From the NCBI RefSeq assembly GCF_004010195.1, contig NC_057757.1, forward strand, positions 4,851,346 through 4,915,345: 64,000 nt of DNA. The letters are read 5' to 3'. Source of the stretch: Chiloscyllium plagiosum. Its lineage: Eukaryota. Each line of letters begins with the position of its first letter. Positions within the stretch are counted from its first letter, which is position 1. Shown here piece after piece: positions 1 through 62,797 of the stretch. Made by a program: the position numbers and the translations under genes. The notes below the pieces were generated by a model. It worked only from the letters and a program-made list of their open reading frames with translations, was not told the origin of the DNA and did not search any database.

Positions 1-804
1 GAGGAGTGTAGAGATGAGGCGGTGGGAGGAGTGTAGAGATGAGGCGGGTGGGAGGATGTAGAGGTGAGGACGATGAGGGAGTGGGAGGAGTGTAGAGGTG
101 AGGACGATGAGGCGGTGGGAGGAGTGTAGAGGTGAGGACTATGAGGGAGTGGGAGGAGTGTAGAGGTGAGGACGATGAGGGAGTGGGAGGAGTGTAGAGG
201 TGAGGACGATGAGGCGGTGGGAGGAGTGTAGAGATGAGGCGGTGGGAGGAGTGTAGAGGTGAGGACGATGAGGGAGTGGGCGGAGTGCAGAGGTGAGGAC
301 GATGAGGCGGTGGGCGGAGTGTAGAGGTGAGGACGATGAGGCGGTGGGCGGAGTGTAGAGGTGAGGACGATGAGAGAGTGGGCGTGGTGCAGAGGTGAGG
401 ACGATGAGAGAGTGGGCGGAGTGTAGAGGTGAGGACGATGAGAGAGTGGGCGGAGTGTAGAGGTGAGGACGATGAGAGAGTGGGCGGCGTGCAGAGGTGA
501 GGACGATGAGGCAGTGGGAGGAGTGTAGAGGTGAGGACGATGAGAGAGTGGGCGGAGTGTAGAGGTGAGGACGATGAGAGAGTGGGCGGCGTGCAGAGGT
601 GAGGACGATGAGAGAGTGGGCGGAGTGCAGAGGTGAGGACGATGAGAGAGTGGGCGGAGTGTAGAGGTGAGGACGATGAGGCGGTGGGCGGAGTGTAGAG
701 GTGAGGACGATGAGAGAGTGGGCGGAGTGTAGAGGTGAGGACGATGAGAGAGTGGGCGGAGTGTAGAGGTGAGGACGATGAGAGAGTGGGCGGCGTGCAG
801 AGGT
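1..804. repeat. G-rich minisatellite, ~33-34 bp unit
   Basis: Tandem copies of gaggtgaggacgatgagagagtgggcggagtgta and variants; array runs off the window start. Confidence 0.95.
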
Positions 805-1839
805 GTGAAATGTAAGGGCTGCACAAACCGTCCTGTACTCACCTTCGCTGTCTTCAAGGACACTTTTTTTTTAATGTGCCTACCTCATTGGACAACCTCA
901 TTGCATGGGCAGCCTGTACTGGCCAGTACTGGGGTTCACTTTGAACACATATCATCGAACCCACATAGTGTGGAAGCAGGATATTCAGCCTACTGAGTCC
1001 ACACTGACCCTCCAAAGAGCATCCTGCCCAGACCCACCCGTCTCACCTTATAACCCTGCAAATCCCATCGCTAATCCACCTGACCTATGCATCTTTGGAA
1101 TTGGGGAGGAAACCGGAGCAAACCCATGCAGACACGGAGAGAATATGCAAACTCCACACATACAGTCGCCTGAGCCTGGGATTGAACCTGGGTCTCTGGT
1201 GCTGTGAGACCTCTGTGCTCACCACTGTTCGCTGTGCATTATGAATTGCAATCTCTGTTTTTGTGTGTATGTTAGTATAGTGCATGTTTATCCTTTCTTT
1301 ATTCATTCAAGTGATGAGGACGTTTATTATTCATACTGAGGGCAGTTAAGAGTCAGTTATGACCGGGTGAGGATGGCAGTTCCCCTCCCTAAAGAACATT
1401 AGTGAACCAGACTGTTTTTTCCCACTATCCACAATGGATTCATGGTCATCATTAGACTTCTAACTCAAATTCCGCTATTTGCAGTGGAGGAATTTGAACC
1501 TAGGCCCTCCCCTTCGTGAACATTACCTGCGTCTTTGGAGTAACAGTCCAGCTATAATACCACTAGGCCATCATCTCCCCATCAGTGGTGCTGGAAGAGC
1601 ACAGCAATTCAGGCAGCATCCGAGGACAGGCAAAATCTGTGCTCTTCCAGCACCACTGATCCAGAATCTGGTTTCCAGCATCTGCAGTCATTGTTTTTAC
1701 ATCATCTCCCCATTACTAGTATTCCCTACCTATAGTAATTGTAGTCCATGTTTTCGTGTGCACAGTAGCTCCTTTGTAAATTAATCGTGGTCCCTGTTCA
1801 CATTGTAGTTTAAATAAGCCTTTTTTTTTGTTCTCACAG

Positions 1840-4305: not shown

Positions 4306-4379
4306 GTGAGCAGGCCTGAATGCACACATTGACTTTTACAACGTCAACAGTGACTACAGTTCCCAGAGGCAGGCAAAAG

Positions 4380-5040
4380 ACGGAGTTAGATACAGAGTAA
4401 AGTTCCTTCTACACCATCCCCATTAAACACTCTCAGGACGGGGACAGCACAGGGTTAGATACAGAGTAAAGCTTCCTCTACACTGTCCCGATTAAACACT
4501 CCCAGGATGGAGACAGTGTAGGGTTAGATATAGAGTAAAACTCCCTCTACACTGTCCCCATCAAATTGCCGCACTACAGGGACAGCATGGGACTAGATAA
4601 AGGGTAAAGCTGCCTCTTAACTATCCCCACTAAACACGCCCAAGACAGGGACAGTACAAGGTTGGATACGGAATAAAGCTCCTCCTACACTGTCCCATCG
4701 AACACTTCCAGGGGAGGGTTAGCACAGGGTGAGATACAGCGTAAAGCTCCATCTACACTGTCCCCATTAAACACTCCCAGGACAGAGACAGCACAGGGTT
4801 GAATACAGAGTGAATCTCCCTCTATACTGTCCCTATCCCAGGACAGGGACAGGATGGGGTTAGGTACAGAGTAAAGTTCCTTTTATACTGTTCCCCCATT
4901 CCAGGACAGGGACAGGATGGGGTTAGATACGGAGTAAAGCTCCCTATAGGCTCACCCCCATCAAACACTCCAGCACACAGGGTTGGATAAAGGGCTTCCT
5001 GTACGCTGTGCCCATCTCAGGACAGGGACAGGATGGGTGG
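4380..5040. repeat. Tandem ~68-70 bp satellite-like repeat
   Basis: About 9 degenerate copies of gggttagatacagagtaaagctccctctacactgtccccatcaaacactcccaggacagggacagcac. Confidence 0.9.
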
Positions 5041-16444: not shown

Positions 16445-16710
16445 ACGCTGAAAATGTGTTGCTGGAAAAGCGCAGCAGGTCAGGCAGCATCCAGGGAACA
16501 GGAGAANNNNNNNNNNNNNNNNNNNNNNNNNNNNNNNNNNNNNNNNNNNNNNNNNNNNNNNNAATGAGGAAACTGGTGAAATCCGTGTTCATCCCTTGTG
16601 GTTGGAGGGTTCCTAGGCGGAAGATGAGGCGCTCTTCCTCCAACCGTCGTGTTGTTGTGGTCTGGCGATGGAGGAGTCCAAAGACCTGCATATCCTTGGT
16701 GGAGTGGGCC
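16445..16710 (-). mobile_element. Penelope-like element 3' fragment spanning an assembly gap (N 16507-16562)
   Basis: Encodes RRLEEERLIFRLGTLQPQGMNTDF, the C-terminus of a PLE GIY-YIG endonuclease, plus pLTR sequence. Confidence 0.8.
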
Positions 16711-21699: not shown

Positions 21700-22510
21700 T
21701 ACCAGGCTGTACCAGGCTGGGAGGTCACCATGCCAGGAGGCTGCTGTACCAGGTCAGAAGGTCACCATGCCACACCAGGAGACAGCTGCACCAGGCTGGG
21801 AGGTCACTACACCACACCAGGAGGCTACTGTACCTGGTTGGAAGGTCACTACACCACACCAGGAGGCTACTGTACCTGGCTGGGAGGTCACTACACCACA
21901 CCAGGAGGCTGCTGTACCTGGTTGGGAGGTCACTACACCACACCAGGAGGCTACTGTACCTGGCTGGGAGGTCACTACACCACACTAGGAGGCTGCTGTG
22001 CCAGGCTGGGAGGTAACAGCACCACACCAGGAGGCTGCTGTGCCAGACCAGGTGGTCATCATGCCCACACCAGGAGGCTGCTGTACCAGGCCGGGAGGTA
22101 ACAGCACCACACCAGGAAGCTGCTGTGCCAGACCAGGTGGTCATCATGCCCACACCAGGAGGCTGCTGTACCAGGTCAGAAGGTCACCATGCCACACCAG
22201 GAGGCTGCTGCACCAGGCTGGGAGGTCACTACACCACACCAGGAGGCTACTGTACCTGGCTGGGAGGTCACTACACCACACCAGGAGGCTGCTGTGCCAG
22301 GCTGGGAGGTAACAGCACCACACCAGGACGCTGCTGTGCCAGACCAGGTGGTCATCATGCCCACACCAGGAGGCTGCTGTACCAGGCCAGGACGTCATTA
22401 TGCCACACCAGGAGGCTGCTGTTCCAGGCCGGGAGGGTCATCATGCCACACCAGGAGGCTGCTGTACCAGGCCGGGAGGGTCATCATGTCACACCAGGAT
22501 GTCACTACAG
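21700..22510. repeat. ~42 bp minisatellite
   Basis: About 19 copies of ccaggaggct(g/a)ctgtacc(a/t)ggctgggaggtcactacaccaca and variants. Confidence 0.95.
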
Positions 22511-25500
22511 GAGGCTGGGAATTGTTTCCCAAGGCAGGGAATCGTTGCTTACTAGATGGTGGGAATTGTCACTCACTGGAAGCTGAGAATCACTTGCCGG
22601 AGGCCAGGAATCAAAGAGAGAAAAAAAATAAGAAGGAAATGAAAAAAAAACACTTAGAGGAAGAAAAAGAACAGAAGAGGAAGAACAAGTGGTGTGGAGC
22701 AGCCTCCTCTGCCGCAGCTATACTGCTGGGAGGTCGAGGACATTGGAGCCTCTGCTCAGGAGAATAGAAGGAAGAATTCTGACATGAAATTTGGAGATGG
22801 GGGAGAGGGGTGAAAGCAGGAGGGAAGGAGTGCGGCAGGAGAGGAGGATGAAGGGCAGGTTAAAAATGCCTCTCAAAGCACATCAACAAAGATTTGTATG
22901 GAGAATAGCTACTTTGGTTTGGAGGTGGTGGTCATAGAATCATGCAGCATGGAAACGGCCCTTCGGTCCAACTCATCCATGCCGACCGGGATTCCCAAAC
23001 CAAACTAGTCCCATTTGCCTGCATTTGGAAATAACAAGAAATGTGAGGTTTAGGAAACTTTGATAAATCACAGTTAGTCCGGAAGTGGAATGATATCGAC
23101 ATCGTACAGTTCACTCACAGGATCTGAGTTGCTGTGGCAACATGCAATTTTATTTGCATCTTGGGTAGAGGCTTCAATTTCTGTTCTGTCACATTGCTGA
23201 TGAGAAACCCATCCCACTCGCCATTGGCATTGTATAGAATTCCTACAGGGTGGAAACACCCTTCAGCCCAACAAGTCCACACCGACCCACTCCCCTACAC
23301 TATTATCCTATATTTATCCCTGACTAATACACCTAACCTACATATCCCTGAACACTATTTAGCACAGCTAATCTAGCTTAACCTGCACATCTTTGGAGTG
23401 TGGGATGAAACAAGAGCACCCAGAGGAAACCTAGGCAGACACGGGGAGAACGTGCAAACTCTACACAGACAGTTGCCCGAGGCTGGAACTGAACCCGGAT
23501 CCCTAGCGCTGTGAGGCAGCGATGCTAACCACTGAACCACCATGCTGCTCCATTTATGAGCTGATTGTTAAAAAAAACACATCCCTTGACCATCAGATCC
23601 TGGAATGGGACTCATTCTGTCTCAAAGGCAAGAACACTACCCATTGTGTCACAAGACATTCACTGACCAGTTATATGAAACTAAGACATTAATAAGACCA
23701 CAGTTGGAGTGCTGGGTATCATTCTAGCCACTGCATTACAGGAAGGATGTATTGGACAGTAAGAATAAAGGGTTAATTATTCAAATATTCTGACAAAAAT
23801 TCTGAGCATGTGCATAGAGAGCTTTGTCGTTGCGATTCAGCATTCAATTTCTGTGCCACCAATGCAGAGTGACTGCAGTATGTACCATGTACAAGATGCA
23901 CTGCATCAACTCACAGTAGCTCAGTGGTTAGCACTGCTAACTCACAGTGCCATGGACCTGGGTTTGATTCCAGGTGACTGTCTGTGTGGAGTTTACACAT
24001 TCTCCCCGTGTCCACGTGGGCTTCCTCTGGGTTTGTCTCACAACCCAAAGATATGCAGGTTAGGGTGGATTGGCTGTGCTAAATTTCCCAGAATGTTCAG
24101 GGATGTGTAGGTTAGGTGCATTAGTAATAGGATAGGGGAATGGGTCTGGATGGGATACACTTTGGAGGGTCAGTGCGGACTTGTTGGGCCAAATAGCCCA
24201 TTTCCACACTGTAGGGATTCTGTGATGAACTCCCCAAGACTCCTTTGACAATATTTTCAAAACCCATGACTTCTGCCAACTAGAAGGACAAAGGCAGCAG
24301 ACACACCATCACCTGCAAGTTCCCCTCCAAGCAACACACCATCCTGACTCAGAAATATGTTGGCCTCTCCTTCTGTCTGTGTGGAGTTTGCACATTCTCC
24401 CTGTGTCTGCGTGAGTTTCCTCAGGGTGCTCCCGTTTCCTCCCACAATCCAAAGATGTGCAAGTTAGATGAATTGGTCATGTTAAGTTGCCTCACAGTGT
24501 TCAGGGATATGCAGATTAGGTGCATTAGTAAATAAAGGATAATAGGGGAGAGGAATGAGTCTGGGTGGGTTACTCTTTGGAGGGTTGGTGTGGATTTGTT
24601 TGGCCGAAGAACCTGTTTCCACACTGTAGGGATTCAATGACCTTCTAAATCATTTCTGCACCCTTTCTAATGTCCGTACATCCTTTCTACAATTTGGTGC
24701 CCAGATGTAGACATAGAATTTCATTTGAGCTGAAGCCAGGACTGTGTAAAGTTAAATCTTGTAATCTTTGTTCCCTGTCATGTTTTCTGCTGCTGCATGG
24801 AACTCTGAGGTTCCCACACAGCAATGACTTCTGGAGATGGACTTCAATACATTGGTTGAGAGTGTGGTGCTGGAAAAGCACAGCCGGTCAGACAGCATCC
24901 AAGGAGCAGGAGAATCAACGTTTTGGGCAAAGGTCCTTCATCAGGAATGAGGCTCGTGAGCCTAGNNNNNNNNNNNNATCTGGGATAAGGTGGGGGGAGG
25001 GGAAATGAGGAAACTGTTGAGTATGCACAGAACTTGATTTGGAAGGTACTGTTGAAGGAGTCTTACAGAGTTGCTGTACTGCATCTTGATGGTATACATA
25101 CGACACTGTGCGTCAGTGATGGAGAGAATGTTCAGTCATAATGGTACAACTCCTTATGCACATGGTGAGTAAAAGGGCAAAGTCAGCATAATCTTACCAG
25201 ACCATAGGGCTGCTCTCTAATTTGAGAGTGACGACTGGTTGTGGCTGAATGTGAGAGTTCCCCCTGTTTCACGAGATAGGGGAGAGGTTAAGAAGGAGAG
25301 TCCTTCATGGTAACCTTAGCCTATAGAGGAATTGAACCCACTCTGTTGGCGTCACTGTGCTTTGCCAAAGGAGCGAACTGATCCACTACATGCTCAGTAG
25401 CTTTGTCAGAATGTTAGCGCTTATTATCATATTCTTAAATTTGTTCAGTTTTGTTTTGTTCTTTGTTTTGCTGTGTCTGAGTCTGTAAGGGTTAATATTT

Positions 25501-26029
25501 AATTAAGTGCAGTAAGCCCCACCCACTGTGATGATGTTACAGGGACTTGGTCTCAGTAAAGAAAGAAATTGTCTTGGATAGATTCAAGTCAGTGTATTTC
25601 TAACAGTTTGTGTCGTAACATAGGCCACGGTAACATAAATACCCGCAATAAACATACTATTGTTTCTTCAACAGACTGTTTTAATTTGGCCAAAAAATGA
25701 GTATCCTGAACCATACAAAATCACTTTGATCTTGATGCAACATACACATACAATATCCTTTCATAAGATGCAGGTGTCACTGGTCACCATTTCTTGCCTA
25801 TCCCCAGTTACCTCTTCACCTGAGTGACCTGCTAGACCATTTCAGGGCAAAAGGTCAACCACATTGATGGGCTCTGGAGTCATGCATGGGCCAAATAGGG
25901 TAAGGACACTCAGTTTGCTTTTCTTTATATTTCTTTCTTTTACCTCTCTTGTCTCATTTGTTTGCTCTTCTATTTTATTTCATTTACCACTTGGTAAAGA
26001 ACGTGGCTGTTTTGGCACGTTGGTGGCAG

Positions 26030-27360
26030 TGAGTGGACCCAGCAGAGCAGACTTAAGTAGGCCTCTTAGCATGGACTAAAGTGGCCCCAGCAGAGCAGAC
26101 TTGGATAGGCCTGTGACCATAGACTAAAGTGGGCCCAGCAGAGCAGACTCAAGTAGGCTTGTTCATGTGGATTAAAGTGGGCTCAGAGAGCCGTCTCAAG
26201 TAGGCCTGGTAGTTTGGAGTAAATTGGGCCCAGCAGAGCGGACTCAAGTAGGCCTGTTGGCGTGGAGTAATGTGGGCTCAGCAGAGTGGACTCGAGTAGG
26301 CCTGTTAGTGTGGAGTAAATTGGGCCCAGCAGAGCAGACTTGAGTAGGCCTGTTCATGTGGACTAAAGTGGCCCCAGCAGAGCAGACTCGGGTAGGCCTA
26401 TTACCGTGAACTAAAGTGGGCCCAGCAGAGCAGACTCAAGTAGTCTTGTTCATGTGGATTAAAGTGGGCTCAGAGAGCAGTCTCAAGTAAGCCTGTTAGT
26501 GTGGAGTAAATTGGGCCCAGCAGAGTGGACTCAAGTAGGCCTGTTGGTGTGGAGTAATGTGGGCTTAGCAGAGTGGACTCGAGTAGGCCTGTTCACGTGG
26601 ACTAATGTGAGCCCAGCAGAGCAGACTCGAGTAGACCTGTTCACGTGGATTAAAGTGGGCTCAGCAGAGTGGACTCGAGTAGGCCTGTTAGCGTGAACTA
26701 ATGTGGGCCCAGCAGAGCAGACTCGAGTAGGTCTGTTAGCGTGGACTAAAGTGGGTTCAGCAGAGTGGACTCGAGTAGGCCTGTTTGATTAGATTTTTTT
26801 TTAGATTACTTACAGCGTGGAAACAGGCCCTTCGGCCCAATAAGTCCACACTGACCCGCCGAAGTGCAACCCACCAAGACCCACTCCCCTACATTTACTC
26901 TTTCACCTAACACTATGGACAATTTAATATGGCCAATTCACCTAACCTGCACATTTTTGGATTGTGGGAGGAAACCGGAGCACTCGGAGGAAACCCACGC
27001 AGACACGGGGAGAATGTGCAAACTCCACACAGTCAGTCGCCTGAGGCGGGAATTGAACCTGGGCCTCTGGCGCTGTGAGGCAACAGTGCTAACCACTGTG
27101 CCACCATGTGTGGACTAATATGGGCCCAGCAGAGCAGACTCAAGTAGACCTGTTCATGTGGACTAAAGTGGACTCAGCAGAGTGGACTCGAGTAGGCCTG
27201 TTTGCGTGGACTAAAATGGAACCAGCAGAGCAGACTGGAGTAGGTCTGTTCATGTGGACTAATATGGTCCCAGCAGAGCAGACTCGAGTAGACCTGTTAG
27301 TGTGGACTAAAGTGGACCCAGCAGAGCAGACTTGAGTAGGCCCGATAGCGTGGATAAAGT
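26030..27360. repeat. 48 bp minisatellite interrupted by a SINE
   Basis: Copies of gtgggcccagcagagcagactcgagtaggcctgttcatgtggactaaa on both sides of 26786-27107. Confidence 0.95.
26786..27107 (-). mobile_element. Young HE1-type V-SINE inserted into the minisatellite
   Basis: Near-complete copy with attag-type tail at its left end and tRNA head at its right end. Confidence 0.9.
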
Positions 27361-27823
27361 GTGAACTTGTGGCAGTGGCCTTGGAAGCGAATTCCAGTGG
27401 CTTCTGCATCGTCGAGACAGCCCTAGCACTGACTGATGGCTGCTGCAGTGGAGGCAAGTTTGGGTTCTCAGCGACATCTCCTTCCAGTAGAGATTCATGG
27501 AATCGGTGGCAGAGGCAAGTTTGGACCCAATACTGGGCCCAGTGACATCAGCAGCGGCCGCATCATTGAGGTGAGGCCCGAAGTGGACTTATAGCAGCGG
27601 CAGCAGAGTCAGGTGTGGGTTGATGCAGTACCTGACAGTGTCTGCACTGGCGAGGACCAGTGAGGACTCAGTGGCAACAGTAAAGCTGAGATGATGCCGA
27701 AGAGTGACCAGTTTCCTTCCAGCAACAGTGGGGTGGCGAAGGAGACTCATGCCTGGCCACCAGTCCCATGACATAGCACTTAATAAGGAGGACGGTAAAG
27801 TTGGAGACTTCCTTTATCTCTTC

Positions 27824-32504: not shown

Positions 32505-33142
32505 CTGTGCCCACATCACTCCCCTCACCTCTGTCCAAGGCTCCAAAGGAACCTTCCACATCCGTCAGAGATTTACCTGCACTTCCACATACGTCATTTA
32601 CCGTGTCCTTTGCTCCTGTTGTGATCTCAACTACATTGGGGAGACAGGATGCCTACTCTCAGAACGTTTCAGAGAACGTCTCTGGGACACCCGCACCAAC
32701 CAACCCCACTGCCCTGTGGCTGAACACTTTAACTCCCCCTCCTACTCCCCCAAGGACATGCAGGTCCTGGGCCACCTCCGCCACCAAACCCTTACCATTC
32801 CCTGGAGGAAGAACACTTCATCTTCTGCCTTGGGACCCTCCAACCACGTGGGAACAATGTGAATTTCACCAGTTTCCTCATTTCCCCTCCCAGATCGAGC
32901 CTTCCAACTTGGCGCCACCTCCAGATGTCCAAGTTCTTTCCCACCTATCCGCTCCACCCTCCTCTCCGACCTGTCACCTTCACCCCACCTCTGTCTACCT
33001 ATCACATTCTCAGCAACTTTCCCCATCCCTCCCCATTTATCTCTCAGCCCCTGTGGCCCATAAGCCTTCTTCCTGATGAAGGGCTTATGCCTGAAACATT
33101 GATTCTCTTGCTGCTCGGATGCCGCCTGACCTGCTGTGCATG
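32505..33142 (+). mobile_element. Penelope-like element, decayed GIY-YIG domain plus pLTR
   Basis: tacattggggagacagga (YIGETG)...ERFRE...VAEHFNS; hammerhead-like core at 33073. Confidence 0.85.
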
Positions 33143-34321
33143 GTCCCTCAGTCCCCACTCTGTCTGGTCTCCCCAAAGGGGTCACAGCAATTTTTCAAAC
33201 CTCAAAATGGGATCATGGTGTGAAAATGTTTGGGGAGCTCAGCTTTGGAGTCCTTTTTTTTATTGAGAGATTTCTTCATGAGACAGCAACATCCCCCACC
33301 TGCCTAATCCCTGTATGTAAATGTTGCACCTGCTGACCAGGGAAAGAAATATTCATGTGGCGCTGTTCATTTTCCCCAAAACTGCATCTTCCATGAAGCC
33401 CATGACTGGAACATCCTGGGGTCATAAGGCAGGGAAAAGCACAACTAGAAGAGAACAAAAGTTCTTTGACAACTATGGAGGAAATTGGAATGGGCTGTGA
33501 TTTTGAGCAGGAGAGGGATTTGGACAAAGGTGTTAGAGGAGGACGATTGAGTGTGAGGAAGAATGTTTGGTTTGTTTTTTAAGCATTGAATGATAAATGA
33601 CCTGGAACTCTGTCTCCGTGTGCAAGCAGTGGTGATGCATGAGCTCAAAGGGAAATGTGATGGACACTTCAAGGTTCACTACCGTGATCCCTGCTATGGA
33701 TGGATTATCTTTTGAGTAAAGGTTAAACAGGTTGGGATTTTACTCATCGGAGTTTAGAAGAATGAGTGGTGATCTCATTGAAACATTGGATTCTTAAGAG
33801 TCTTGCCAGAGAGGATGTTTCACTCCTGGGAGAGTCTAGGACCAGAGAGCATGGTCTCCGAATAATGGGGTGCCAATTTAAGACAGTGGCAAGCAGTTTC
33901 TTCCCTGAAGATTTGAGAGTCTTTGGAACTCCTTGCCACAGAGCTGTTGGAGTGGAGTCCTTGTGTATATTGAAGGCTGAGATAGATTCTTGATCAACCG
34001 GGGAATCAAGGGTTATGGAGAAAGAGCGCGAAAGTGGACGTGAGGAACGTCAGGTCAGCCGTGATCCTATTGAATGGCAGGATAGGCTCAAGGACCCTCC
34101 AGTTCCTATATCTTTTGGTCTCAGGCAATAAAGAGGTAGGGCCAGTGATGAAAAGAGCAGGAGTACGTAAATAAATAACCTAAAGTGGGCTGGCATGGAC
34201 TCAATGGGCCAAACTGTTTGTGAGGACTCTGACTCCAGTGTTATGTGGCGTGCTCTGTGCGGTGGACGGTTAAAGGCGATGCTGTTCTGTTTTCAAACCT
34301 GTCTTCAACATCATGTTCCAG

Positions 34322-40171: not shown

Positions 40172-40830
40172 ACTACAGATGCTCGATTAAATCAGGGTTG
40201 ATGAAGCGTGGTGTTCAAAAAGGTACAGCAGGTCAGGCAGCATCCGAGAAGCAAGAGAGTCAATGTTTCAGGCGGGTCTCTTCAGGACTGGGGAAGGGAG
40301 GTTGGGGCTAGGGGAAAGGTAGTTGATAGGTCAGTGGGAAGGGTGGCGTGGATAGGAGGAAGGAAGATTGACAGATAGGTTAGGTCAGAAGGTCAACAGA
40401 GTTGGAGGGTTGGATCTAGGGGGGTGAGGGGGGGAGAGATTTGGAAACGCTGAATTCAATGTTCATGCCATATGGTTGTTGGCTCCTGAGGTAGAAGATG
40501 GAGTGTTCTCCAGTTTGCAGGTGGCCTTGTGTCGATGCTGGAGGTGGCCCAGAATGGACATGTCCTGAGGGGAGTGATAGGGGGAGTTGAAGTGGTTGGC
40601 CATGGGAAGGTGGGGTTGGTTGGTGCATACGGACCAGAGATGTTCCCTGAACCATTCTGAGAGTCTGCGCTTGGTCTCTCCGATGTTGAGGAGACCACAG
40701 CGAGAGCACTGGATACAGTAGAGGAGGTTGGAGGATGTGAAGAAGGGTCCTGCCCGAAACGTTGACACTCTCGCTCCTCAGATGCTGCCTGACATGCTGT
40801 GCCATTTCTAGGGCCGTGCTCCATCAACTC
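40172..40830 (-). mobile_element. Penelope-like element fragment with inverted pLTR
   Basis: Encodes YCIQCSRCGLLNIGETKRRLSEWFREHL...MANHFNS (GIY-YIG), flanked by pLTR pieces in opposite orientations. Confidence 0.85.
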
Positions 40831-41434
40831 TGTTAAGCCAGAGACCCAGATAACGTTCTGGGGACTCCGGTTTGAACCCTGCCACAGGAGATGGTGGAAT
40901 TTGAATTAGATTTTTAAAAAATCTGGATTTAAGAGTCTAATGATGACCATTATCCACTGCCAATTGCTGGGAAAAACCCATCTGGTTCACTAATGTCCTT
41001 TCGGGAAGGAAACTGTCCTCACGTGACTCCAGACCCACAGCCAATGTGGTTGACACTTAATTGCCCTTTAGGGATGGTAATAAATGCCAGCCAAGCCAGT
41101 GATGCCCTCATCCTGTGAATGAATTAAAAAAAAATACTTGTAAACTGCATCTTTATTCTCTCCAATGTGTTCGCATTCATCCGATAATATAACGCCTAGA
41201 ACATTACACAATACTCGAACTGAAGTGTGTTAAGTGTCTTGTACAAGTTCAATACCACCCCCTTGCACTATGCCTTTATTAATAGAGCAGGAGAACACTA
41301 TATCCTTTCCTTATTGCTCTCCAGAATTTCCACCTGACAGATCGCTTTTAAAGATTTGTGCACATATATCTCTGCCCAGGTCCCTCTACTCCTGCACCCC
41401 TTTAGAATTGTACCATCTATTTTATATTGTTTTC

Positions 41435-42275
41435 AGCATACCTAGGAAAGCCATACACACTGATTAGATACTCAACTACAGGAGCAATCATCCCAACACC
41501 CACAAAGGGAGCTGCATCAGGACACATTTAAATAAGCCACAACACACAGCAGCACCCAGGGAGTACGCGGAGCAGAGGAAAAACACCTATACAATGTATT
41601 CTGGAACAACGGGTACTCGATAAGTGCAGTCTGCTGATTCCTGCACAACAGACCAAAATAAGAAGACACCACACGCCCAGAGACTCTGCCATCTTGCCAT
41701 ACATTAAAGGCATCTCGGAGATGACAACCAGATTACTCCGGCCCCTAGGCATCATGGTAGCCCACAAAGCTACCCCCACACTGAAACAGCTCCTGATGAA
41801 TTTAAAGGACCCCATACCAACAACCAGCAGAACACCATATACAAAATACCCTGAACAAATATTACATTGGACAGACGGGCAGGAAACTAGCCACCAGGAT
41901 ACATGAGCACCAACTAGCCACCAAAAGATATGATCAACTATCACTAGTATCCACACACAGAGACAAAGAGGGACACTAGTTCGAGTGGGACCGTACATCC
42001 ATCCTGGGACAGGCTAAACAAAGACACGCACGGGAATTCCTAGAGGCCTGGCTTTCAAACTGGAACTCCATTAACAAACACATCGATTTGGACCCCATTT
42101 ACCAATCTCTCAGCAAAAGAACTGGAAGTGTTATCACCCACCACAACAGACCAAGACACACCAATAGCACGTGGGTCAGAACACCAGCGCTTCATCGGAG
42201 GCTCACTGATGATAGTACTGAGCATGGTGACGAAACGTCTGAGAACAAATCTCGCAGCTCAGCAAGCAAACGTAC
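41435..42275 (+). mobile_element. Penelope-like element (second family): RT C-terminus, GIY-YIG and hammerhead-bearing 3' end
   Basis: LPYIKGISEMTTRLLRPLGIMVAHK, YIGQTGRKLATRIHEHQ, REFLEAW with frameshifts; hammerhead core at 42206-42239. Confidence 0.85.
42202..42243 (+). ncRNA. Putative type-I hammerhead ribozyme (degenerate helix II)
   Basis: CTCA / CTGATGA / helix II / GAAA-CGTC / TGAG; the CTCA and TGAG arms are complementary. Confidence 0.6.
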
Positions 42276-42527
42276 AACGAGATTGCCTTCCAATGTTCAT
42301 CCAACCTGTGTAATACACAGGTAATGGAAAATATATATGTACACCAGCACTGGCAGTGCCTACTGGCCACAGAACCCAGTAATGTCTCTTCCATCGGGCA
42401 GAAAATACAGAACCTTCAACACACACACCAACAGGTTCAAGAACAGCTTCTTCCCTGCTGTTATTAGAGTGACGAATGGAGTCTCTAACTTCAATTAATG
42501 TTGATCTTGCATTGTACACTTCCTGCG

Positions 42528-42565
42528 GAATCCTGAAGAAGGGCTTATGCCCGAAACGTCGATTC
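42528..42565 (+). ncRNA. Putative minimal type-I hammerhead ribozyme
   Basis: GAATC-CTGAAGA-A-GGGC-ttat-GCCC-GAAA-CGTC-GATTC: 5 bp helix I, 4 bp helix II, intact core, GUC cleavage triplet. Confidence 0.7.
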
Positions 42566-43054
42566 TCCTGCTCCTTGGATGCTGCCTGACCTGCTGCGCT
42601 TTTCCAGTAACACATTTTCAGCTCTGATCAAACACCCTACGACCCGTATGTTCTTGTTTGCTATGACTTTCCTGTACTGCTCGCAAATCAAAACTTTTCA
42701 CTGTCTGTGTGGAGTTTGCACATTCTCCCTGTGTCTGCATGGGTTTCCTCCAGGTGCTCTGGTTTCCTGCCACAGTCCAAGGCTGAGCAGGTTAGGTGAA
42801 TTGGCCATGCTAAATTGTCCATAGTGTTCAGGGATGTGTAGGTTAGGTGCACTAGTAATAAGATAGGGGAATGGGTCTGGGTGGGATACTCTTTAGAGGG
42901 TTGGTGTGGACTTGTTGGGACAAATGGCCTGTTTCCACACTGTAGGGATTCTATGATTAGGTACATGTGACTACGATAAATCAAATCAAATCAACATCCA
43001 AAGCGTACAGTGAGCACCGAATGCTCCCTCTCCAAGGACATACAGGTGGGATGT

Positions 43055-43830
43055 GCAGGGAGAATGCGAGGACTGCAGATGCTGAACATCAGAGTTGAAG
43101 AGTGTGGTGCTGGAAATGCACAGCCGGTCAGGCAGCATCCAAGGAGCGGAAGAATCGACATTTCGGGCATAAGCCCTCAGGAATGAGGCTTGTGGGCCAA
43201 GGGAGCTGAGAGATAAATGGAAAGGAGGTGAACCTGGGGAGGTAGGCAGCTGGGAATGCGATAGGTAGATGAAGGTGAGGGTGAATGTGATAGGTTGGAG
43301 AGGAGGGTGAAGCAGATAGGTGGGAAGGAAGGTAGACAGGGAGGACCGTTCTAGAGTGTGGTGCCAATTTTGATGGTTGGGATTGGGATAAGGTGAGGGA
43401 AGGGGAAATGGGAAACAGGGGAAATAGGAAACTGGTGAAATCCACATTAATCCCATGTGGTTGGAGGGTCCCATGGTGGAAGAGGAGGTATTCTTTCTTC
43501 AGGCATTGGATGGTTAGGGTTTGGTGACGGAGGAGGCCTAGGACCTGCATGTCCTTGGCGGAGTGGGAGAGGGAGTTAAAGTGTATAGCCACATGGCGGT
43601 GGAGTTGGTTAGTGCAGGTGTCCCAGAGATGTTCTCAGAAATGATCTGCAACTTGGCGTTCCGTCTCCCCAGGGTAGAGGATACCACATGTGTACAGTGG
43701 ATAACATGTGTGGAAGGAGAGGTACATTTCTTTTGGATGTGGAAGGATCCTTTAGGGCCTTGGCTGGAGGTGAGGGGGGTGGTGTGAGCATAGGTTTTGC
43801 ACATCTTGCAGTGGCAGGGGATGTGCAGCC
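43055..43830 (-). mobile_element. Penelope-like element 3' fragment
   Basis: HFNSLSHSAKDMQVLGLL...GTLQPHGINVDF, same family as 32505-33142. Confidence 0.85.
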
Positions 43831-44084
43831 AGGAATGAGAAGCTGGCAGTGAGGTTAGGATGCCCCCTTCCGCTAATTGGTTACCTGCCAATAGCCAGGC
43901 CCATATCTAACATAATAAGATAGTGGGAACAGGTAAACATTGTCAATGAAACAAAGAGTTACTTTCTGAAGGAAAATTAAGCATAAAATGTCATTGAAAA
44001 AAATGCCAGCACTTTATAAATATTCTACAAGATAACTGAACAACTTGCCATACCAGGTTGCCAACTCTGGTTGGAGAGAATAAA

Positions 44085-44775
44085 AAAACACAGCAGATGC
44101 TGGAATCCAAAATAGACAGGCTGGAAGAACACAGCAAACTAGGCAGCATCAGGAGGTGGAGAAGTCGATGTTTCGGGTGTATTCCTTCTTTAGGACTGGG
44201 GATGGGTACAGGGGGAGCTGCAGATAAAGGGGGTGGTGGGGAGGAGGATGGTGAAGTGGGGATAGGTGAAGGCAGGTAGCAGGTACGACCTGGTTGGTCA
44301 GTGGGAGGAATGGTGGCAGGCAGCAATGGAAATGAGTTGGTGGGGCTGGAAAAGAAGTTGTGGGATGGGAGGGAGATTATTTGAAATTGGAGAATTCAAT
44401 GTTGGGTCCTTCAGGCTGTAGGCTGCCCAAGCGGGCAAGCGGAAGATGAGTCGCTGTTCCTCCATTTTACAGTTTGGTTTGTTGTGGCAATGGAGGAGAC
44501 CAAGGATGGTCATGATTTGGAGATGCCGGTGTTGGACTGGGGTGTACAAAGTTAAAAATCACACAACACCAGGTGATAGTCCAACACGCTTAATTGGAAG
44601 CACACTAGAAAGGGAATTAAAATGGGGAATCCCATCAGCCCCTGCAGGCCCAGTTGACATGCTAGGCTAAATGTGCCCTAGGTTTATGTTTGATCTCCCC
44701 AATTTAGAGAACACCACTTCTAGAGCACCTAATGCACTACACATGGTTTGAAGAGAAGCATCTGAACTCTGGTTG
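44085..44775 (-). mobile_element. Penelope-like fragment with a nested pLTR piece
   Basis: ILGLLHC...KMEEQRLIFRL on the reverse strand; gttaaaaatcacacaacaccagg insert at ~44510-44602. Confidence 0.7.
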
Positions 44776-44789
44776 CCCGTCTTCCTAAA

Positions 44790-46035
44790 TGGTTGTCAAT
44801 CACTTCCGGCCTTCAATCGATCTGTCCACGTTCTACCCCTATTGGTTTACAGAGACGTCAATCATTTCCTGAACCCGCCGTCCGTCAGCTTTTTCCCATT
44901 GGTCCATACATCTCCAGTGACGTTTAGAAACTGGATTGGTGAATGAAGGGGCGGGTCGGCTTTTTCTTGTAGATTGACATGCAGAGCCACCAACCATTCG
45001 GCGCAGAGTGCCAGTTTGACCGTTGATTGACGTGTGGACGCGCTGAGAGGGCGGGATCTAATTATTGACGGATCGCGCGGTTGGTCAATCGGTGAGGAAG
45101 AGCGAGTCCAACGGTGACGGGTCCCCAAGCAGAATAGCGGCCTCAATCTTGATCGACGTGCAGTCCAACCAATGTAGAACAGGATCGGGATGATCAGCAT
45201 CCAATGGAAATGGAATATCTTGGAAAGGGCGGGATTGACTCTCTCGCTGGATGGGGGAGGGGGTGAGAATTGATTGACATTTGCCAAGGCCAATCGAATG
45301 AGCGATGTGACAAAGCCTTCGATGAAAATGAAGCAGAATTGAAGGCGGGATTAGGAAGGGGGGCACAAACAGAAATTGGTAAACCCAGCAGGTCTCGCAG
45401 CATCTGTGTAGTGAAAAGAAGGGTTAATATTTCGGGTTCAGTGACATTTTTTTCTGAAGAAGGAATGGACGCTATTTGACTCACGTTGCCGCCCATTCGT
45501 GACTTGACCGGAGACGGTTTGTCGATCGAGGGGGGGGATTATGCGCATTGTTGATTGTCATCGGCACTGACCAATCGGAAAGGAGAATGGGACACCTCTC
45601 TCCCATGAACCAACAGGATTACGGAGGGTGGGGCCAGTATTATTGATTGACAGGATATGGACCGATCAGGATGGTAGTCTGAAGTTGCTGTCCAATGAAA
45701 CCAGGGGGAGGCAGGATTAGGGTTGCTGATTGACACCGGTCCTGTCCAACCACTGCACGTGGCCCGGAAAGCGTCCGTCCAACGGAGAGGCGGTGGTGCG
45801 GGATTGACATCCATGTGGACCAATCGGAGTGGAAACGGTGTGTTGCCGTTGGAGACGCGGGCCGTCGGTTGATGTGGGAAAGGCCGCGGTGGTGGCGGGG
45901 CCCTGGCCTGTGAAGTGAGGGGGTGCAGAGCGAGAGGGACCGGGGGTAATCGTTGGGAGAAGTGGATCAGAGGCGGCACTGGGGGAAAGTGCATCCTGGC
46001 CCTGTGCCTTCAGGGATAAGCTGTCAATCGAAGCT
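44790..46035 (+). promoter_or_regulatory. CpG-rich promoter region of C17orf49/BAP18
   Basis: The only extended non-repeat CpG-rich segment, 0.7-1.9 kb upstream of the ATG; many CCAAT, GGGCGG and GATTGAC motifs, plus CACTTCCGG at 44801. Confidence 0.75.
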
Positions 46036-46688
46036 CTGGAGTGGGTTTTGTAGGGGGAGAGGAGTGAGCCTTCCTATCTGCTTCTGTATTGCAACTTCTG
46101 TAAAACCTCAGGGGATAAAAAACATCTAAAATATTGCATTGCAAAAAGAAATTACCAGCAAACTGTTCACAAATGCCTGTTGCACGTGCATTGCATTGGG
46201 ACCACCTGCATTGACATCAGTTACCAACTCCCACCCCTCGCACACAGAGACCCAAAAAGCGAATTAAACATTTCATTTTAGTTCTGGTTTGCCCATCTTC
46301 CAGTCTGCACACAGCAAGAGGGCAATCGCTGTGCGATCCAGTTGCATCAAGTCAGACCACACGGGTCTGGGATTGTTGCAAGGGGAGCCAGGAGGGTTGG
46401 TTGGTTGGTTGGTTGTGGGGTGGGGAGGTGGTAAAGACGACCATTTCAGGTCCCCCTTTCCTTGAAAGCGGGGAATTACCTTGGATCAGGTGCTGCCAAC
46501 CTCGCCCACCTACCAGCAATCCCTGTGCTCCACGTCAGGCTATTTGGCATCGACTGGTTCAAATTTGGGCTCATCCAGGGTTCTGGAAATCAGTCAAGAG
46601 CGTTTACCCCTTCCTCTGCCAAACTTTTGGGCTTAGGAATTGTTTTTGTCCTGACTGTGGGTAGGGAGTTCGGAGGAGCACCCTCAGG

Positions 46689-46709
46689 ATGACCTCTGCA
46701 TCGACCAAG
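46689..46709 (+). CDS. C17orf49: BAP18 (chromatin complexes subunit) coding exon 1
   Basis: ATG MTSASTK|gtaagt; possible acceptor at 46663-46664. Confidence 0.92.
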
Positions 46710-48454
46710 GTAAGTGTAGTCACTTTTATTTGATAAAACTTCTCATTGTTTGCGTGGGTGCCATTGGCTGAGTGTCCTATATAGTATCCATCAGTAATTG
46801 CCCTGCAGAAGGTGTGGTGAGCCCCTTCTTGAACTGTTACACTGCCATGTGTTGTAGGTAGACCCACTTCTGTTAGGAAGGCAATTCTAGGAATTTGACC
46901 TAGTGACCCTGAAGGAATGGTGGCTCATTTCCAAGGCAGGATGGTGAGTGGTTTGGAGGGAGAATGTGCGGATACTGCTGAATGTGCTGAATCTACTGCC
47001 ATTGATCTTTTAGAATAGCAGTGGTCATGGGTTTGGAAGGTGTCTTAAGGAGGCTTGATGAATCACTGCAATATGCTGGGGCACTACAGTGGCTCAGTGG
47101 TTAGCACTGCTGCCTCACAGTGCCAGGGACCTGGGTTGGATTCCTCGAGTGAACATCAGGCAGAAGATACAGAACCTTCAACACACACACCAACAGGTTC
47201 AAGAACAGCTTCTTCCCTGCTGTTATTAGAGTGATGAATGGAGTCTCTAACTTCAATTAATGTTGATCTTGCATTGTACACTTCCTGCGGTGTAATCTAC
47301 ATTTAAAAATGCGTTGCTGGAAAAGCGCAGCAGGTCAGACAGCATCAAAAGAACAGGAGAATCGACGTTTCGGGCATTAGCCCTTCTTCAGGAATCCTGA
47401 AGAAGGGCTTATGCTCGAAACGTTGATTCTCCCTGTGTTTGTGTGAGTTTCCTCTGGGTGTTCCGGTTTCAGTCAAAAGATGTGGAGGTTAGGGTGGATT
47501 GGCCATGCTAAATTGCCCGTAGTGTCCAGGGATGGGTAGGCTAGGTGGATTAGCCATGGTAAATGTGGTGTTACGGGATATGGTGAGGGACTGGATCTGG
47601 GTGAAATGCTGCTCAGAGGGTCAATGTGAACTTGATGGGCCGAGCAACTTCCTTCTGCACTGTAGAAATTCTACCTTTGTAGATGGTCTGCATTGCTGCT
47701 GCTGAGCACTAGTCTTGGAGGGAATGAATGTTGAAAATGACGGATGGTGTGGCAAACAAATGGGTTGTTTATTTGAGATGGTGTTGAGCTTCTTGAGTGT
47801 TCTAGCAATGCTCACCCAGGCAAGTGGGGAATATTTTACCCCATTCTTGACTTGCGTCTTGTAGATGGTGGGCAGGTTCTGGAGTGTCAGTGAGTGAGTT
47901 AACACAGTAGAATTCCTAGCCTCTCAATTGAATTCTTGAATTCCTGGCTTTAGCAGCCACAGTATTTACGTGGCTGGTCCAGTTGAATATTTTTGGCAAT
48001 TCGTAATCACCAGGTTATTACTTGATAAGCATGTTGTAGCTTTTGATTGGAGGCACACTTCCAGCCTGCCATCCTATTGTAGTGATTTAGAGTTCAAAGA
48101 ATTGACGATAGTGCCCATTAAGTTGTATTTGACTTTTTGTAGCTGAGTTGATGAGAGTAGACACAAAGTGGACCCTCTCCCCTACCAACTCATCTTCTTT
48201 GCCTCCCCTCCCCCATCCCCCTCTCCCTCTTCCCTTCCTCCCACCAAGTCTCTTCCTTAACAAGCAATGGAAATAATGACTAGATGGACGTAGTCAGATT
48301 CTTAATAAGCAAGGGATAAAGAGTGTTTGGCTTAGATAGGAGTGTGGAATAATTGGATCAGCCATAGCTGAGCAGGCTCGATGGACTGATTGGCCTACAC
48401 TTGCTGCTAATTCATCTGTTCATTCAAAAGCAAGATGAAGCTTTTCTGACACGG

Positions 48455-61446: not shown

Positions 61447-61514
61447 GTACGTGTTGCTCTTTGGTGGTGGGGGGAGGGGTTGCGAGATGTGGAGGGTGGG
61501 CTCTCTTTCGCAAG

Positions 61515-62190
61515 CATGCAATCTCTCACACATGCTCGCTCTCTCTCTCTCTCTCGTGTATGCACTGTCACACACGCACTCTCTCCCTCTCACGCAGGCA
61601 CTCTGTCGTACGAACGCACTCATCTTGTCGCACACATGCACCCTGCCTCACTCACTCACGCACGCTCACATGTGCGCACACACTCCATCTCACGCGTGCA
61701 CTCTGTCTCATGCACACATGCTGTCTCACTCACGCACACGCACACATGAATTCCGTCTCACAGATGAACTCCGTCTCACGCACGCTCTCTTACGTGCGCG
61801 CTCTCTCTTACGTGCGTGCTCTCTCTTACGTGCGTGCTCTCTCTTACGTGCGCTCTCTCTTACGTGCGCTCTCTCTTACGTGCGCGCTCTCTTACGTGCG
61901 CGCTCTCTCCCTCGAACGCGCTCTCTCCCTCGAACGCGCTCTCTCCCTCGAACGCGCTCGCTCCCTCGAACGCGCTCGCTCCCTCGAACGCGCTCTCTCC
62001 CTCGAACGCGCTCTCTCCCTCGAACGCGCTCGCTCGAACGCGCTCTCTCGAACGCGCTCTCTCGCTCGAACGCATGCTCGCACACTCTCTCTTTTCTCAC
62101 ACGCGCACTCTCTCTCACATATGTAGTCACTCACTCTCACATGCACGCACTCTCTGTCTCTCACGCACTCTCTGTCTCTTGCGCACGCAC
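61515..62190. repeat. CA/CT low-complexity tract with two CpG-rich 16-18 bp tandem arrays
   Basis: (tacgtgcgcgctctctct)n at ~61790-61905, then (ccctcgaacgcgctctct)n at ~61908-62070. Confidence 0.95.
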
Positions 62191-62797
62191 GTGTGATACC
62201 TTCCCAGGAGATTCTAGTTGGTTTTCTTTGCCTTTGCTGACCTGACCATCCTCTCCAGGCATCATCCTTGGACTGGTGAAAGGTATGGAGCACCATATCA
62301 CCGGAGATGGAGTTATTGGGTACAGCAAGCTACACACTAGCATAGGACTTTTAAACAGATGATGCTTTCACGGGATGTAGGCGTCACTGACAGCTCCAGT
62401 ATTTATTGCCCATCCTTCATTCCCTTCGAGAAGCTGCTGGTGAGCGGCACTTTGGACAGCTGTGATCCTCGGGCTGTCCTGGCGTTTGACCTAGTGACAG
62501 CAGAGCGGCAGTATGGTTCCAAGTCAGGATGGCATGCGGCTCAGAAGGTGGTGGCATTCCTGTGCATCTGCTCCCCAGTCCTTCCAGCTTGGGAAGATCA
62601 GCAGGTTTGAAAGGCTATGAAGAAGGAGATTTGCCAAGTTCGTTGCAAGCGTATTAATGGTGTCTGGGCATTTAATTAGTTGAGTCACGTTGTTGGGGGA
62701 GTGTTGAGGGAAATGAGCTGTGAACCCGCTTGCCCTGCTGTCGGGTAATCCCTGTTTGTTGATCTGCATTTATATATTTTATCTGTCTCTGTTTCAG

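What the first reader, a model, noticed from the sequence alone, without database searches (positions are those of the whole stretch)
42528..42565. Intact minimal hammerhead ribozyme motif in a Penelope pLTR fragment
Seen: GAATC / CTGAAGA / A / GGGC-ttat-GCCC / GAAA / CGTC / GATTC. This gives a perfect 5 bp helix I, the CUGANGA and GAAA core, a 4 bp helix II, and a vestigial helix III containing the palindrome ACGT before a GUC cleavage triplet. There is one extra A between the core and helix II. Known: Penelope-like retroelements carry minimal type-I hammerheads that are thought to cleave as dimers. Inference: this shark repeat family spreads self-cleaving RNA motifs that ordinary gene or repeat annotation would not report.
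Basis: partly seen in the sequence, partly recalled or inferred. Interest (0 to 1): 0.7.

Follow-up and report, generated by a model that had tools for sequence, protein, structure and literature searches.

The report
Shark Penelope hammerhead, junction-made helix
This is a real copy of the tiny hammerhead self-cutting RNA motif already known from Penelope-like jumping genes and is very abundant in this genome; its unusually perfect first stem is not the family's own sequence but likely a leftover of a fold-back junction, so it is likely an inert genomic fossil.

Summary
The motif is at the stated coordinates and far above chance (2 hits versus 0.003 expected). It is a minimal type-I hammerhead of the kind published for Penelope-like elements (PLEs); the 'extra A' is a published hallmark. 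It heads a ~100-nt stub of the 3' UTR/pLTR of a Neptune-type PLE, inserted in a LINE tail; the family is huge (94,875 and 82,387 contigs laid in two runs).

The 'perfect' helix I is locus-specific. The family reads (C)AUUC, giving 2 bp + U·U + 1 bp. A paralogue 4.8 kb away shares 137 nt of flank and shows that GGAAT is the tip of an inverted arm. Copies' 5' ends pile up at the A of ATTCC, a likely transcription start; no pile-up at the cut site was listed. The copy is solo, has no promoter or tandem partner, and relatives decay at CpGs in catalytic positions. Cleavage is untested.

This scan has noted shark PLE hammerheads and the start-site pile-up before, on other DNA (770 notes, at least 36 genomes). 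Ordinary element; one small mechanistic clue.

The parts
42527..42532 (+). 5' strand of helix I (GGAATC). Locus-specific: likely the tip of an inverted arm plus C; the family-native strand is (C)ATTC
   Evidence: T at 42530 in 33 of 38 RNA reads that reach it; 650 reads clipped at 42531 with loose consensus ending CCTCAT
42533..42540 (+). Core CUGANGA (N7 = A) plus the unpaired A between positions 9 and 10.1
   Evidence: the extra nucleotide is described as conserved in PMC4209133
42541..42552 (+). Helix II, 4 bp, loop UUAU, G10.1-C11.1 present
   Evidence: the fourth pair is C-G here, U-A at 39190-, U·G at 40756+
42553..42560 (+). GAAA core, ACGU palindrome (no monomeric helix III), GUC triplet; predicted cut 3' of 42560
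   Evidence: cut site inferred from hammerhead rules, not observed
42561..42566 (+). 3' strand of helix I (GATTCT), family-native
42529..42629 (+). Solo ~100-nt stub of a Neptune-type PLE 3' UTR/pLTR; it ends before the optional ~30-nt tail
   Evidence: loose ends behind 42629 (382 RNA reads) give the 30-nt tail consensus
42370..42528 (+). Host element: C-terminal codons and start of the 3' UTR of a LINE (Rex1/Babar-like; label recalled, no Pfam hit)
   Evidence: an X4 joint 42515->42646 skips the stub
42630..42995 (+). Rest of the LINE 3' UTR and its short-repeat tail, interrupted at about 42696-42958 by a 5'-truncated SINE copy
   Evidence: (families D10, D11, D14)
47154..47432 (+). Paralogue inside a SINE: same 137-nt LINE flank (97.8%), then ~102 nt absent at 42528, then the same GGAATCC junction and a 40-nt forward arm
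47306..47395 (-). Inverted arm: a family copy starting at ATTCC, head-to-head with the forward arm; palindrome centred on 47394, 35 of the first 38 positions paired
32506..33160 (+). Same-family copy in native context: GIY-YIG endonuclease remnant, 3' UTR, decayed hammerhead at 33073
   Evidence: tblastn E 4e-35 to P0001
43061..43822 (-). Same-family copy in native context with endonuclease remnant, core deletion and full tail

Best explanation
The motif is a minimal type-I hammerhead at the head of a solo ~100-nt stub of a very abundant Neptune-type Penelope-like retrotransposon; its perfect helix I is not the family's sequence and is likely left over from a fold-back junction, and this copy is likely inert. 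Steps: (1, shown) In the source element the hammerhead lies in the 3' UTR/pLTR behind the GIY-YIG endonuclease, with native helix I C-G, U-A, U·U, A-U. (2, shown) Short copies begin preferentially at the A of ATTCC, 4 nt before C3. (3, inferred) That A is the Pol II start of the pLTR promoter, so the hammerhead is the first ~35 nt of a capped RNA; reverse transcription started at the nearby tail runs off this end and gives ~100-135-nt stubs. (4, inferred) Copying the cap adds one C, so the cDNA ends in GGAATC; that C pairs back over a 3-nt loop and the cDNA copies itself into a head-to-head palindrome, as at 47394. (5, inferred) At 42528 the inverted arm was deleted at a GG microhomology, leaving GGAAT. 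Because ATTC occurs on both sides of the core as a direct repeat, its inverted form pairs perfectly with GATTC. (6, inferred) In active elements the ribozyme would cut 3' of GUC only as a dimer through ACGU, probably slowly and protein-assisted. This copy has no promoter or tandem partner and could cut only in trans with another family transcript.
For: Native 5' strand: 5 of 7 anchored copies have T at helix position 2.3; the 2 with A are this locus and its paralogue. T at 42530 is seen in 33 of 38 RNA reads and about 65% of contig depth that reaches it, and most reads are clipped at 42531 with a consensus ending CCTCAT. Paralogue: global alignment shows 42528 equals the 47.2-47.4 kb locus minus one ~102-nt block that holds the inverted arm; that palindrome has exactly the centre that a one-C snap-back predicts. 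5'-end hot spot: on a copy with native upstream sequence, loose ends at the A of ATTCC number 201 RNA reads (X21) and 310 contigs (X7, agreement 0.31, consensus starting CCTG, the palindrome form); all 10 opposite-strand joints shown have one side at 24942-24949, and all 6 shown have one side at 42527-42533. Both ATTCC and the sister subfamily's AGTCC fit the initiator pattern YYANWYY (recalled), with TTTAT about 31-34 nt upstream in 3 of 4 copies printed. PLE link. Selection in source elements: frequent non-CpG variants within the motif fall on N7 and loop II; helix II and helix I pairs covary in sister subfamilies. Literature: monomer inactive, dimer weak (PMC4209133); protein-assisted cleavage, not needed for insertion, internal RT start at the tail (PMC11167929); cap-derived G at 5' ends of L1/SVA insertions (PMC3287187, passages).
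Against: The direction of change between the paralogues is not settled: the inverted arm differs from 42528+ at 7 of 88 sites against 5 of 177 for the shared parts (Fisher p = 0.11), so the arm could be a later insertion into, or a template switch within, a 42528-type junction. No RNA 5' end was observed at ATTCC (table 6 empty). A G precedes ATTCC in 47396- but not in 50502-, and the X21 loose-end consensus at 24948 does not start with the G-equivalent. The depth drop past 24949 is partly an edge and mismatch effect; X11's shown rows do not include 24948. The sister copy 40283- has no clear TATA-like motif. The locus folds into helices I and II better than any other copy tested (helix I pair probability 0.47-0.58 against 0-0.15), so in vitro dimer activity is quite possible. 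ViennaRNA's best dimer pairs helix II strands, not ACGU.
Confidence: 0.7

Rival explanations
1. One reading: an intact, family-typical ribozyme; the dispersed copies are functional self-cleaving RNAs that cut host transcripts.
For: Perfect core and best-folding copy in the window. Family RNA is abundant on both strands (2757 reads in about 2% of run X21), so trans-dimers are conceivable.
Against: Helix I is not family-typical. 2 of 14 window copies keep core, helix II and GUC. CpG decay at G12, C11.1 and C17 reaches about 10-15%. No same-strand intact partner nearby: 47397+ has GUU and is locked in a -54 kcal/mol hairpin; 42206+ has lost G10.1-C11.1 and has a non-matching helix I. Published activity is low (PMC4209133).
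Confidence: 0.1
2. Same identity, but the junction arose otherwise: AATC came from a T-to-A change or filler at a plain 5'-truncation junction, and the paralogue gained its inverted arm later by a second insertion or a template switch at GGA microhomology. The ATTCC hot spot would then reflect the endonuclease's ATT preference and microhomology, not a transcription start.
For: Arm age test inconclusive (p = 0.11); the arm carries T at the position matching 42571, a common family variant (22% of X7 depth) that 42528+ lacks. The anole PLE endonuclease prefers 5'-ATT-3' (PMC11167929). Several inverted partners start at 42560-42563, also an ATT site.
Against: The ATTCC boundary also recurs in element-to-element inverted joints, where no host target is involved. 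The sister subfamily with AGTCC keeps the initiator pattern without ATT. The palindrome centre needs no extra assumption under snap-back.
Confidence: 0.17
3. The stub is a retrozyme or SINE-like unit made by ribozyme cleavage and circle copying, mobilised separately from the PLE.
For: Short units dominate; a few head-to-tail joints of about 90 nt exist (3 of 15 joint rows shown). Tandem retrozymes are reported in one chondrichthyan genome (bioRxiv 10.64898/2026.07.22.740005, passages). One window copy (1637-) starts about at the cut site.
Against: No tandem array at the locus. Those head-to-tail joints fall at the ATTCC start, not at GUC. The stub includes sequence 5' of the cut site, which a cleaved template would lack.
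Confidence: 0.03

Closest known systems
Minimal hammerheads (min-HHR) in pLTRs of metazoan PLEs, Cervera and De la Pena 2014 (PMC4209133; parts 1-2 of 4 read, 2 supplementary files searched, file 1 not searchable)
   Same: Type-I topology, CUGANGA/GAAA core, unpaired nucleotide between 9 and 10.1, G10.1-C11.1, palindromic 15.2-16.2, no helix III, in pLTRs of fish Xena/Poseidon/Neptune elements, mostly solo dispersed copies, some close pairs on opposite strands.
   Different: No shark family in the parts read or supplements searched. Helix II is 4 bp here (7-8 bp in Schistosoma). Native helix I carries a U·U mismatch; this copy's perfect helix I is junction-made.
Poseidon PLE of Anolis carolinensis and its hammerhead, Frangieh et al. 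2024 (PMC11167929; parts 1-2 of 4 read)
   Same: pLTR hammerhead, optional 30-40-nt tail from two RT start sites, no RNA-seq reads ending at the cut site.
   Different: Neptune-type linker here; no activity data here; a 5'-boundary hot spot at the hammerhead's edge is not described in the parts read.
Head-to-head inverted pLTRs with junction palindromes, Arkhipova et al. 2013 (PMC3846280, passages); Craig et al. 2021 (PMC8557442, passages)
   Same: Inverted 5'-truncated copy next to the pLTR, palindrome at the junction, TATA/Inr-like motifs in pLTRs, self-priming proposed.
   Different: The 2013 paper argues self-priming would need an antisense template; the junction here fits snap-back of first-strand cDNA at a capped sense RNA end (inferred).
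Non-LTR retrozymes (bioRxiv 10.64898/2026.07.22.740005; part 1 of 5 and passages)
   Same: Short non-coding PLE-derived units with type-I hammerheads; found in one chondrichthyan.
   Different: Defined by two or more tandem units with complete hammerheads; this copy is solo.

Membership tests
Metazoan PLE minimal hammerhead (min-HHR) | CUGANGA and GAAA core with NUH triplet, type-I order | tested here: met
Metazoan PLE minimal hammerhead (min-HHR) | Unpaired nucleotide between 9 and 10.1; G10.1-C11.1 pair | tested here: met
   A42540, G42541-C42552; the A is present in 7 of 7 anchored copies
Metazoan PLE minimal hammerhead (min-HHR) | No helix III; palindromic 15.1-16.1 segment | tested here: met
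   ACGT at 42556-59
Metazoan PLE minimal hammerhead (min-HHR) | Helix I of 4-5 bp | tested here: inconclusive
   6 bp at this locus but junction-derived; native form is 3 pairs plus U·U; sister subfamily has 4 bp AGTC/GACT
Metazoan PLE minimal hammerhead (min-HHR) | Covariation across families | tested here: met
   Helix II pair 4 C-G / U-A / U·G; helix I pair 3 G-C in 2 sister copies. Few copies, read by eye, no statistic.
Metazoan PLE minimal hammerhead (min-HHR) | Self-cleavage as a dimer | not testable with these tools
   Needs in vitro assay; one poly(A) single-cell run showed no end pile-up, a weak test
Neptune-type EN+ PLE (source element) | Motif lies in the 3' UTR/pLTR behind a C-terminal GIY-YIG endonuclease of an RT-bearing ORF | tested here: met
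   Same-family copies at 33054+, 43200- and 16506- follow remnants that match P0001/P0002/P0004 (tblastn); P0002 and P0004 carry RVT_1 and GIY-YIG matches (only P0004's GIY-YIG passes the curated cut-off)
Neptune-type EN+ PLE (source element) | CX2-5CxxC linker before the endonuclease (Neptune/Nematis) | tested here: met
   Present in P0002 and P0004; decayed form in the 43538-43906 minus frame. No RT phylogeny was run, so Neptune versus Nematis is not separated.
Neptune-type EN+ PLE (source element) | Optional 30-40-nt tail; inverted 5'-truncated neighbours | tested here: met
   2 of 8 copies printed carry the tail; head-to-head arms at 47394
Non-LTR retrozyme | Two or more tandem units each with a complete hammerhead | tested here: not met
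   No such array in 41000-48000
Rfam hammerhead families | Covariance-model match | tested here: not met

The most novel reading that the evidence does not exclude
PLE head-to-head palindromes arise when reverse transcription runs off a capped sense RNA that starts 4 nt before the hammerhead core, adds a cap-templated C and snaps back on itself; no antisense RNA template is needed. Because ATTC flanks the core as a direct repeat, such junctions repeatedly build hammerheads with a better helix I than the parent, and loss of the inverted arm, as at 42528, releases them as stronger trans-acting partners for the family's abundant transcripts.
Probability: 0.35. Interest if true: 0.55.

Novelty: new member of a known kind. 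Interest (0 to 1): 0.25.

Why it matters
As a ribozyme find it matters little: PLE minimal hammerheads in fish have been known since 2014, and this scan has logged them hundreds of times in shark genomes. It is a caution for motif hunting, since the best-looking copy owes its best feature to an insertion junction. The paired loci give one worked example of how PLE head-to-head palindromes may form and decay, an unexplained PLE hallmark, and a natural pair (GGAAUC against AUUC 5' strand) for testing whether helix I limits cleavage.

Tried and rejected
Rfam: no hammerhead match; this reflects the models' need for helix III (inference), not absence. Own-genome search: no genome held, so no genome-wide copy census or boundary count; laid contig numbers and summed depths are not copy numbers. 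Run search: no RNA holder listed; best holders carry about half of the sampled words, so none is shown to be the source individual. X22 laid 0 of 8,328,510 records: no test. No listed contig spans the 42528 junction and RNA depth just 5' of it is about 1; locus-specific transcription is neither shown nor excluded. Cleavage-site 5' ends: none among the 17 loose-end rows shown (575 hidden) or the 24 shown (496 hidden), so a minor class is not excluded. Pfam on window fragments: 9 of 11 gave nothing, one weak GIY-YIG (41806-41976, E 0.003) and one chance-level match; searches added no GIY-YIG match. Heterodimer with the motif at 42206: rejected, helix I strands do not match and G10.1-C11.1 is lost. 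Arm-age test: inconclusive. Lunse, Weinberg and Breaker 2016 (small PLE hammerheads cleave as dimers) is not held; I saw only its title and the review's passages (PMC6765202), and it may list shark motifs. Supplementary file 1 of PMC4209133 and the preprint's supplements could not be seen and may include chondrichthyan motifs. Literature searches for a shark report or the snap-back model: 2 papers, none relevant; 0; 0; most subscription journals are not covered. Earlier-notes look-ups by sequence, by place and for the junction idea returned nothing.

Full report
Observation. The 38 bases at 42528-42565 are as reported. Helix I is 5 Watson-Crick pairs plus G42527·U42566. The core CUGAAGA is followed by one unpaired A, a 4-bp helix II with G10.1-C11.1, GAAA, the palindrome ACGU and a GUC triplet ending at 42560. 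The 38-mer folds into helices I and II (-11.3 kcal/mol, z -2.28; 5 of 200 shuffles as good), while longer contexts fold no better than shuffles. A descriptor with helix I of at least 5 bp gives 2 window hits against 0.003 expected. Rfam does not detect it.

Context. The motif heads a ~100-nt stub (42529-42629) inside the 3' end of a LINE (Rex1/Babar-like, a recalled label with no Pfam support), which also holds a truncated SINE; one run has a joint that skips the stub (42515->42646). BLAST with six family queries gave 18 merged intervals in the window. Copies at 33054+, 43200- and 16506- follow endonuclease remnants matching RT plus GIY-YIG proteins with a CX4CxxC linker; the two best named hits are Chiloscyllium punctatum proteins at 66-67% identity. 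The source is thus a Neptune-type PLE by the linker criterion of Craig et al. (PMC8557442, passages); no phylogeny was run. The family is huge: 94,875 of 23.7 million contigs in run X7, 82,387 of 21.3 million in X4, and 2757 of 13.0 million RNA reads in X21, on both strands; X22 gave 0.

The perfect helix I is not the family's. Of 7 anchored copies that begin with CTGA, 5 have T at helix position 2.3; the 2 with A are this locus and its paralogue. In one search, 33 of 38 RNA reads reaching 42530 have T, about 65% of contig depth there has T in X7 and X4, and the largest RNA loose-end class (650 reads at 42531) has a consensus ending CCTCAT. Native helix I is C-G, U-A, U·U, A-U; a sister subfamily has a clean AGTC/GACT. 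A paralogue at 47154-47432 shares 137 nt of LINE flank at 97.8% and the same GGAATCC junction, but holds an extra ~102 nt, mostly an inverted family copy that starts at ATTCC. It forms a palindrome centred on 47394 with 35 of 38 positions paired. GGAAT is the tip of that inverted arm. Since ATTC lies on both sides of the core, inverting it yields a strand complementary to GATTC. In the palindrome a -54 kcal/mol hairpin abolishes helix I; at 42528 helix I pairs with probability 0.47-0.58, against 0-0.15 in the 6 other copies scored. Arm loss at 42528 is the simplest reading, but arm gain at 47.3 kb is not excluded (7 of 88 against 5 of 177 differences, p = 0.11). Either way the 5' strand is local, not inherited.

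Where copies begin. Laid on a copy with native upstream sequence, loose ends at the A of ATTCC number 201 reads in X21 and 310 contigs in X7 (agreement 0.31; consensus starting CCTG, the palindrome form); X8 has 23 contigs one base away; X11's shown rows lack it. All 10 opposite-strand joints shown have one side within 24942-24949, and all 6 within 42527-42533, while the other side varies. Depth falls about 4-fold (X7) and 3-fold (X21) across that point, partly through edge effects. No loose-end row at the cut site is among those shown (most rows are hidden), and no RNA start or end pile-up was found, in a poly(A) single-cell library ill-suited to the test. The A fits the initiator pattern YYANWYY (recalled) in both subfamilies, with TTTAT about 31-34 nt upstream in 3 of 4 copies. 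PLE pLTR promoters are known (PMC2377424, passages and section 15; PMC3846280, passages). The 3' ends fall into tail-less and tailed classes (2 of 8 tailed), as in the anole PLE, where RT starts internally at the tail (PMC11167929).

Mechanism. Shown: anatomy, family, native helix I, boundary hot spot, paralogue structure. The cDNA then ends GGAATC, the C pairs back over AAT, and extension gives exactly the 47394 junction. Deleting the left arm at GG gives 42528. The cap-G evidence here is mixed: G precedes ATTCC in 47396- and in the X7 consensus, not in 50502- or the X21 consensus.

Function. Published metazoan minimal hammerheads show no monomer activity and low dimer activity (PMC4209133); the anole one needs protein and is dispensable for insertion in vitro (PMC11167929). 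This copy lacks promoter and tandem partner. Selection appears to act on source elements only: frequent non-CpG variants in the motif fall on N7 and loop II, while CpG transitions hit C11.1, G12, the palindrome and C17 at about 10-15% of contig depth (40 of 81 rows shown), and 2 of 14 window copies keep core, helix II and GUC. I judge it most likely inert in vivo and possibly active as a dimer in vitro.

Novelty. It is a new member of a kind known since 2014. I found no shark-specific report, but Lunse et al. 2016 and some supplements were unavailable, and a 2026 preprint reports retrozymes in one chondrichthyan. This scan holds 770 notes on the theme in at least 36 genomes, several proposing the same start-site reading; they are unreviewed leads, not support. 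The junction origin of helix I and the snap-back reading did not appear. Interest 0.25.

Noticed in passing
window 42201-42244 (+): A second, different minimal hammerhead (6-bp helix II type, 4-bp helix I CTCA/TGAG, GUC) 330 nt upstream, at the end of a PLE endonuclease remnant (about 41430-42300; weak GIY-YIG at 41806-41976). Helix II is decayed and G10.1-C11.1 is lost. A relative lies at 13514-.
   Followed up: partly
window 17194 (-), 17227 (+), 27903 (-): Third hammerhead family: CUGAUGA, extra A, 5-bp helix II, AGCU palindrome, CUA triplet, 3-bp helix I; 17194-/17227+ are head-to-head.
   Followed up: no
window 33054-33090 (+): The native sequence just upstream of the hammerhead resembles the reverse complement of its 5' half and folds onto it. 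It may be an old fold-back fixed in the element or a hairpin that silences the hammerhead in the 3' pLTR copy of the RNA.
   Followed up: partly
window 47078-47680 (+): The paralogue sits inside a SINE, replacing about 20 nt and rejoining it at an ATTCTCC microhomology; it looks like a templated insertion copied from 4.8 kb away.
   Followed up: partly
window 24858-24948, joints: A few contigs (X11, X8) join the tail-less 3' end to the ATTCC start head-to-tail: about 90-nt tandem units that would supply dimer partners.
   Followed up: no
window 42560-42563 joined to 42531: Inverted joints whose arm starts at about the cut site would give a forward hammerhead with a long perfect helix I; whether they record cleavage or ATTC microhomology is open.
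   Followed up: no
window 1585-1637 (-), 2595 (+): Copies that begin at or just after the predicted cut position, in inverted junctions.
   Followed up: no
window 4-912, 4350-4956, 21728-22478, 25925-27406, 61500-62200: Minisatellite arrays with periods of 34, 69, 42, 48 and about 18 nt; assembly N gaps next to PLE copies near 16507 and 24966.
   Followed up: no
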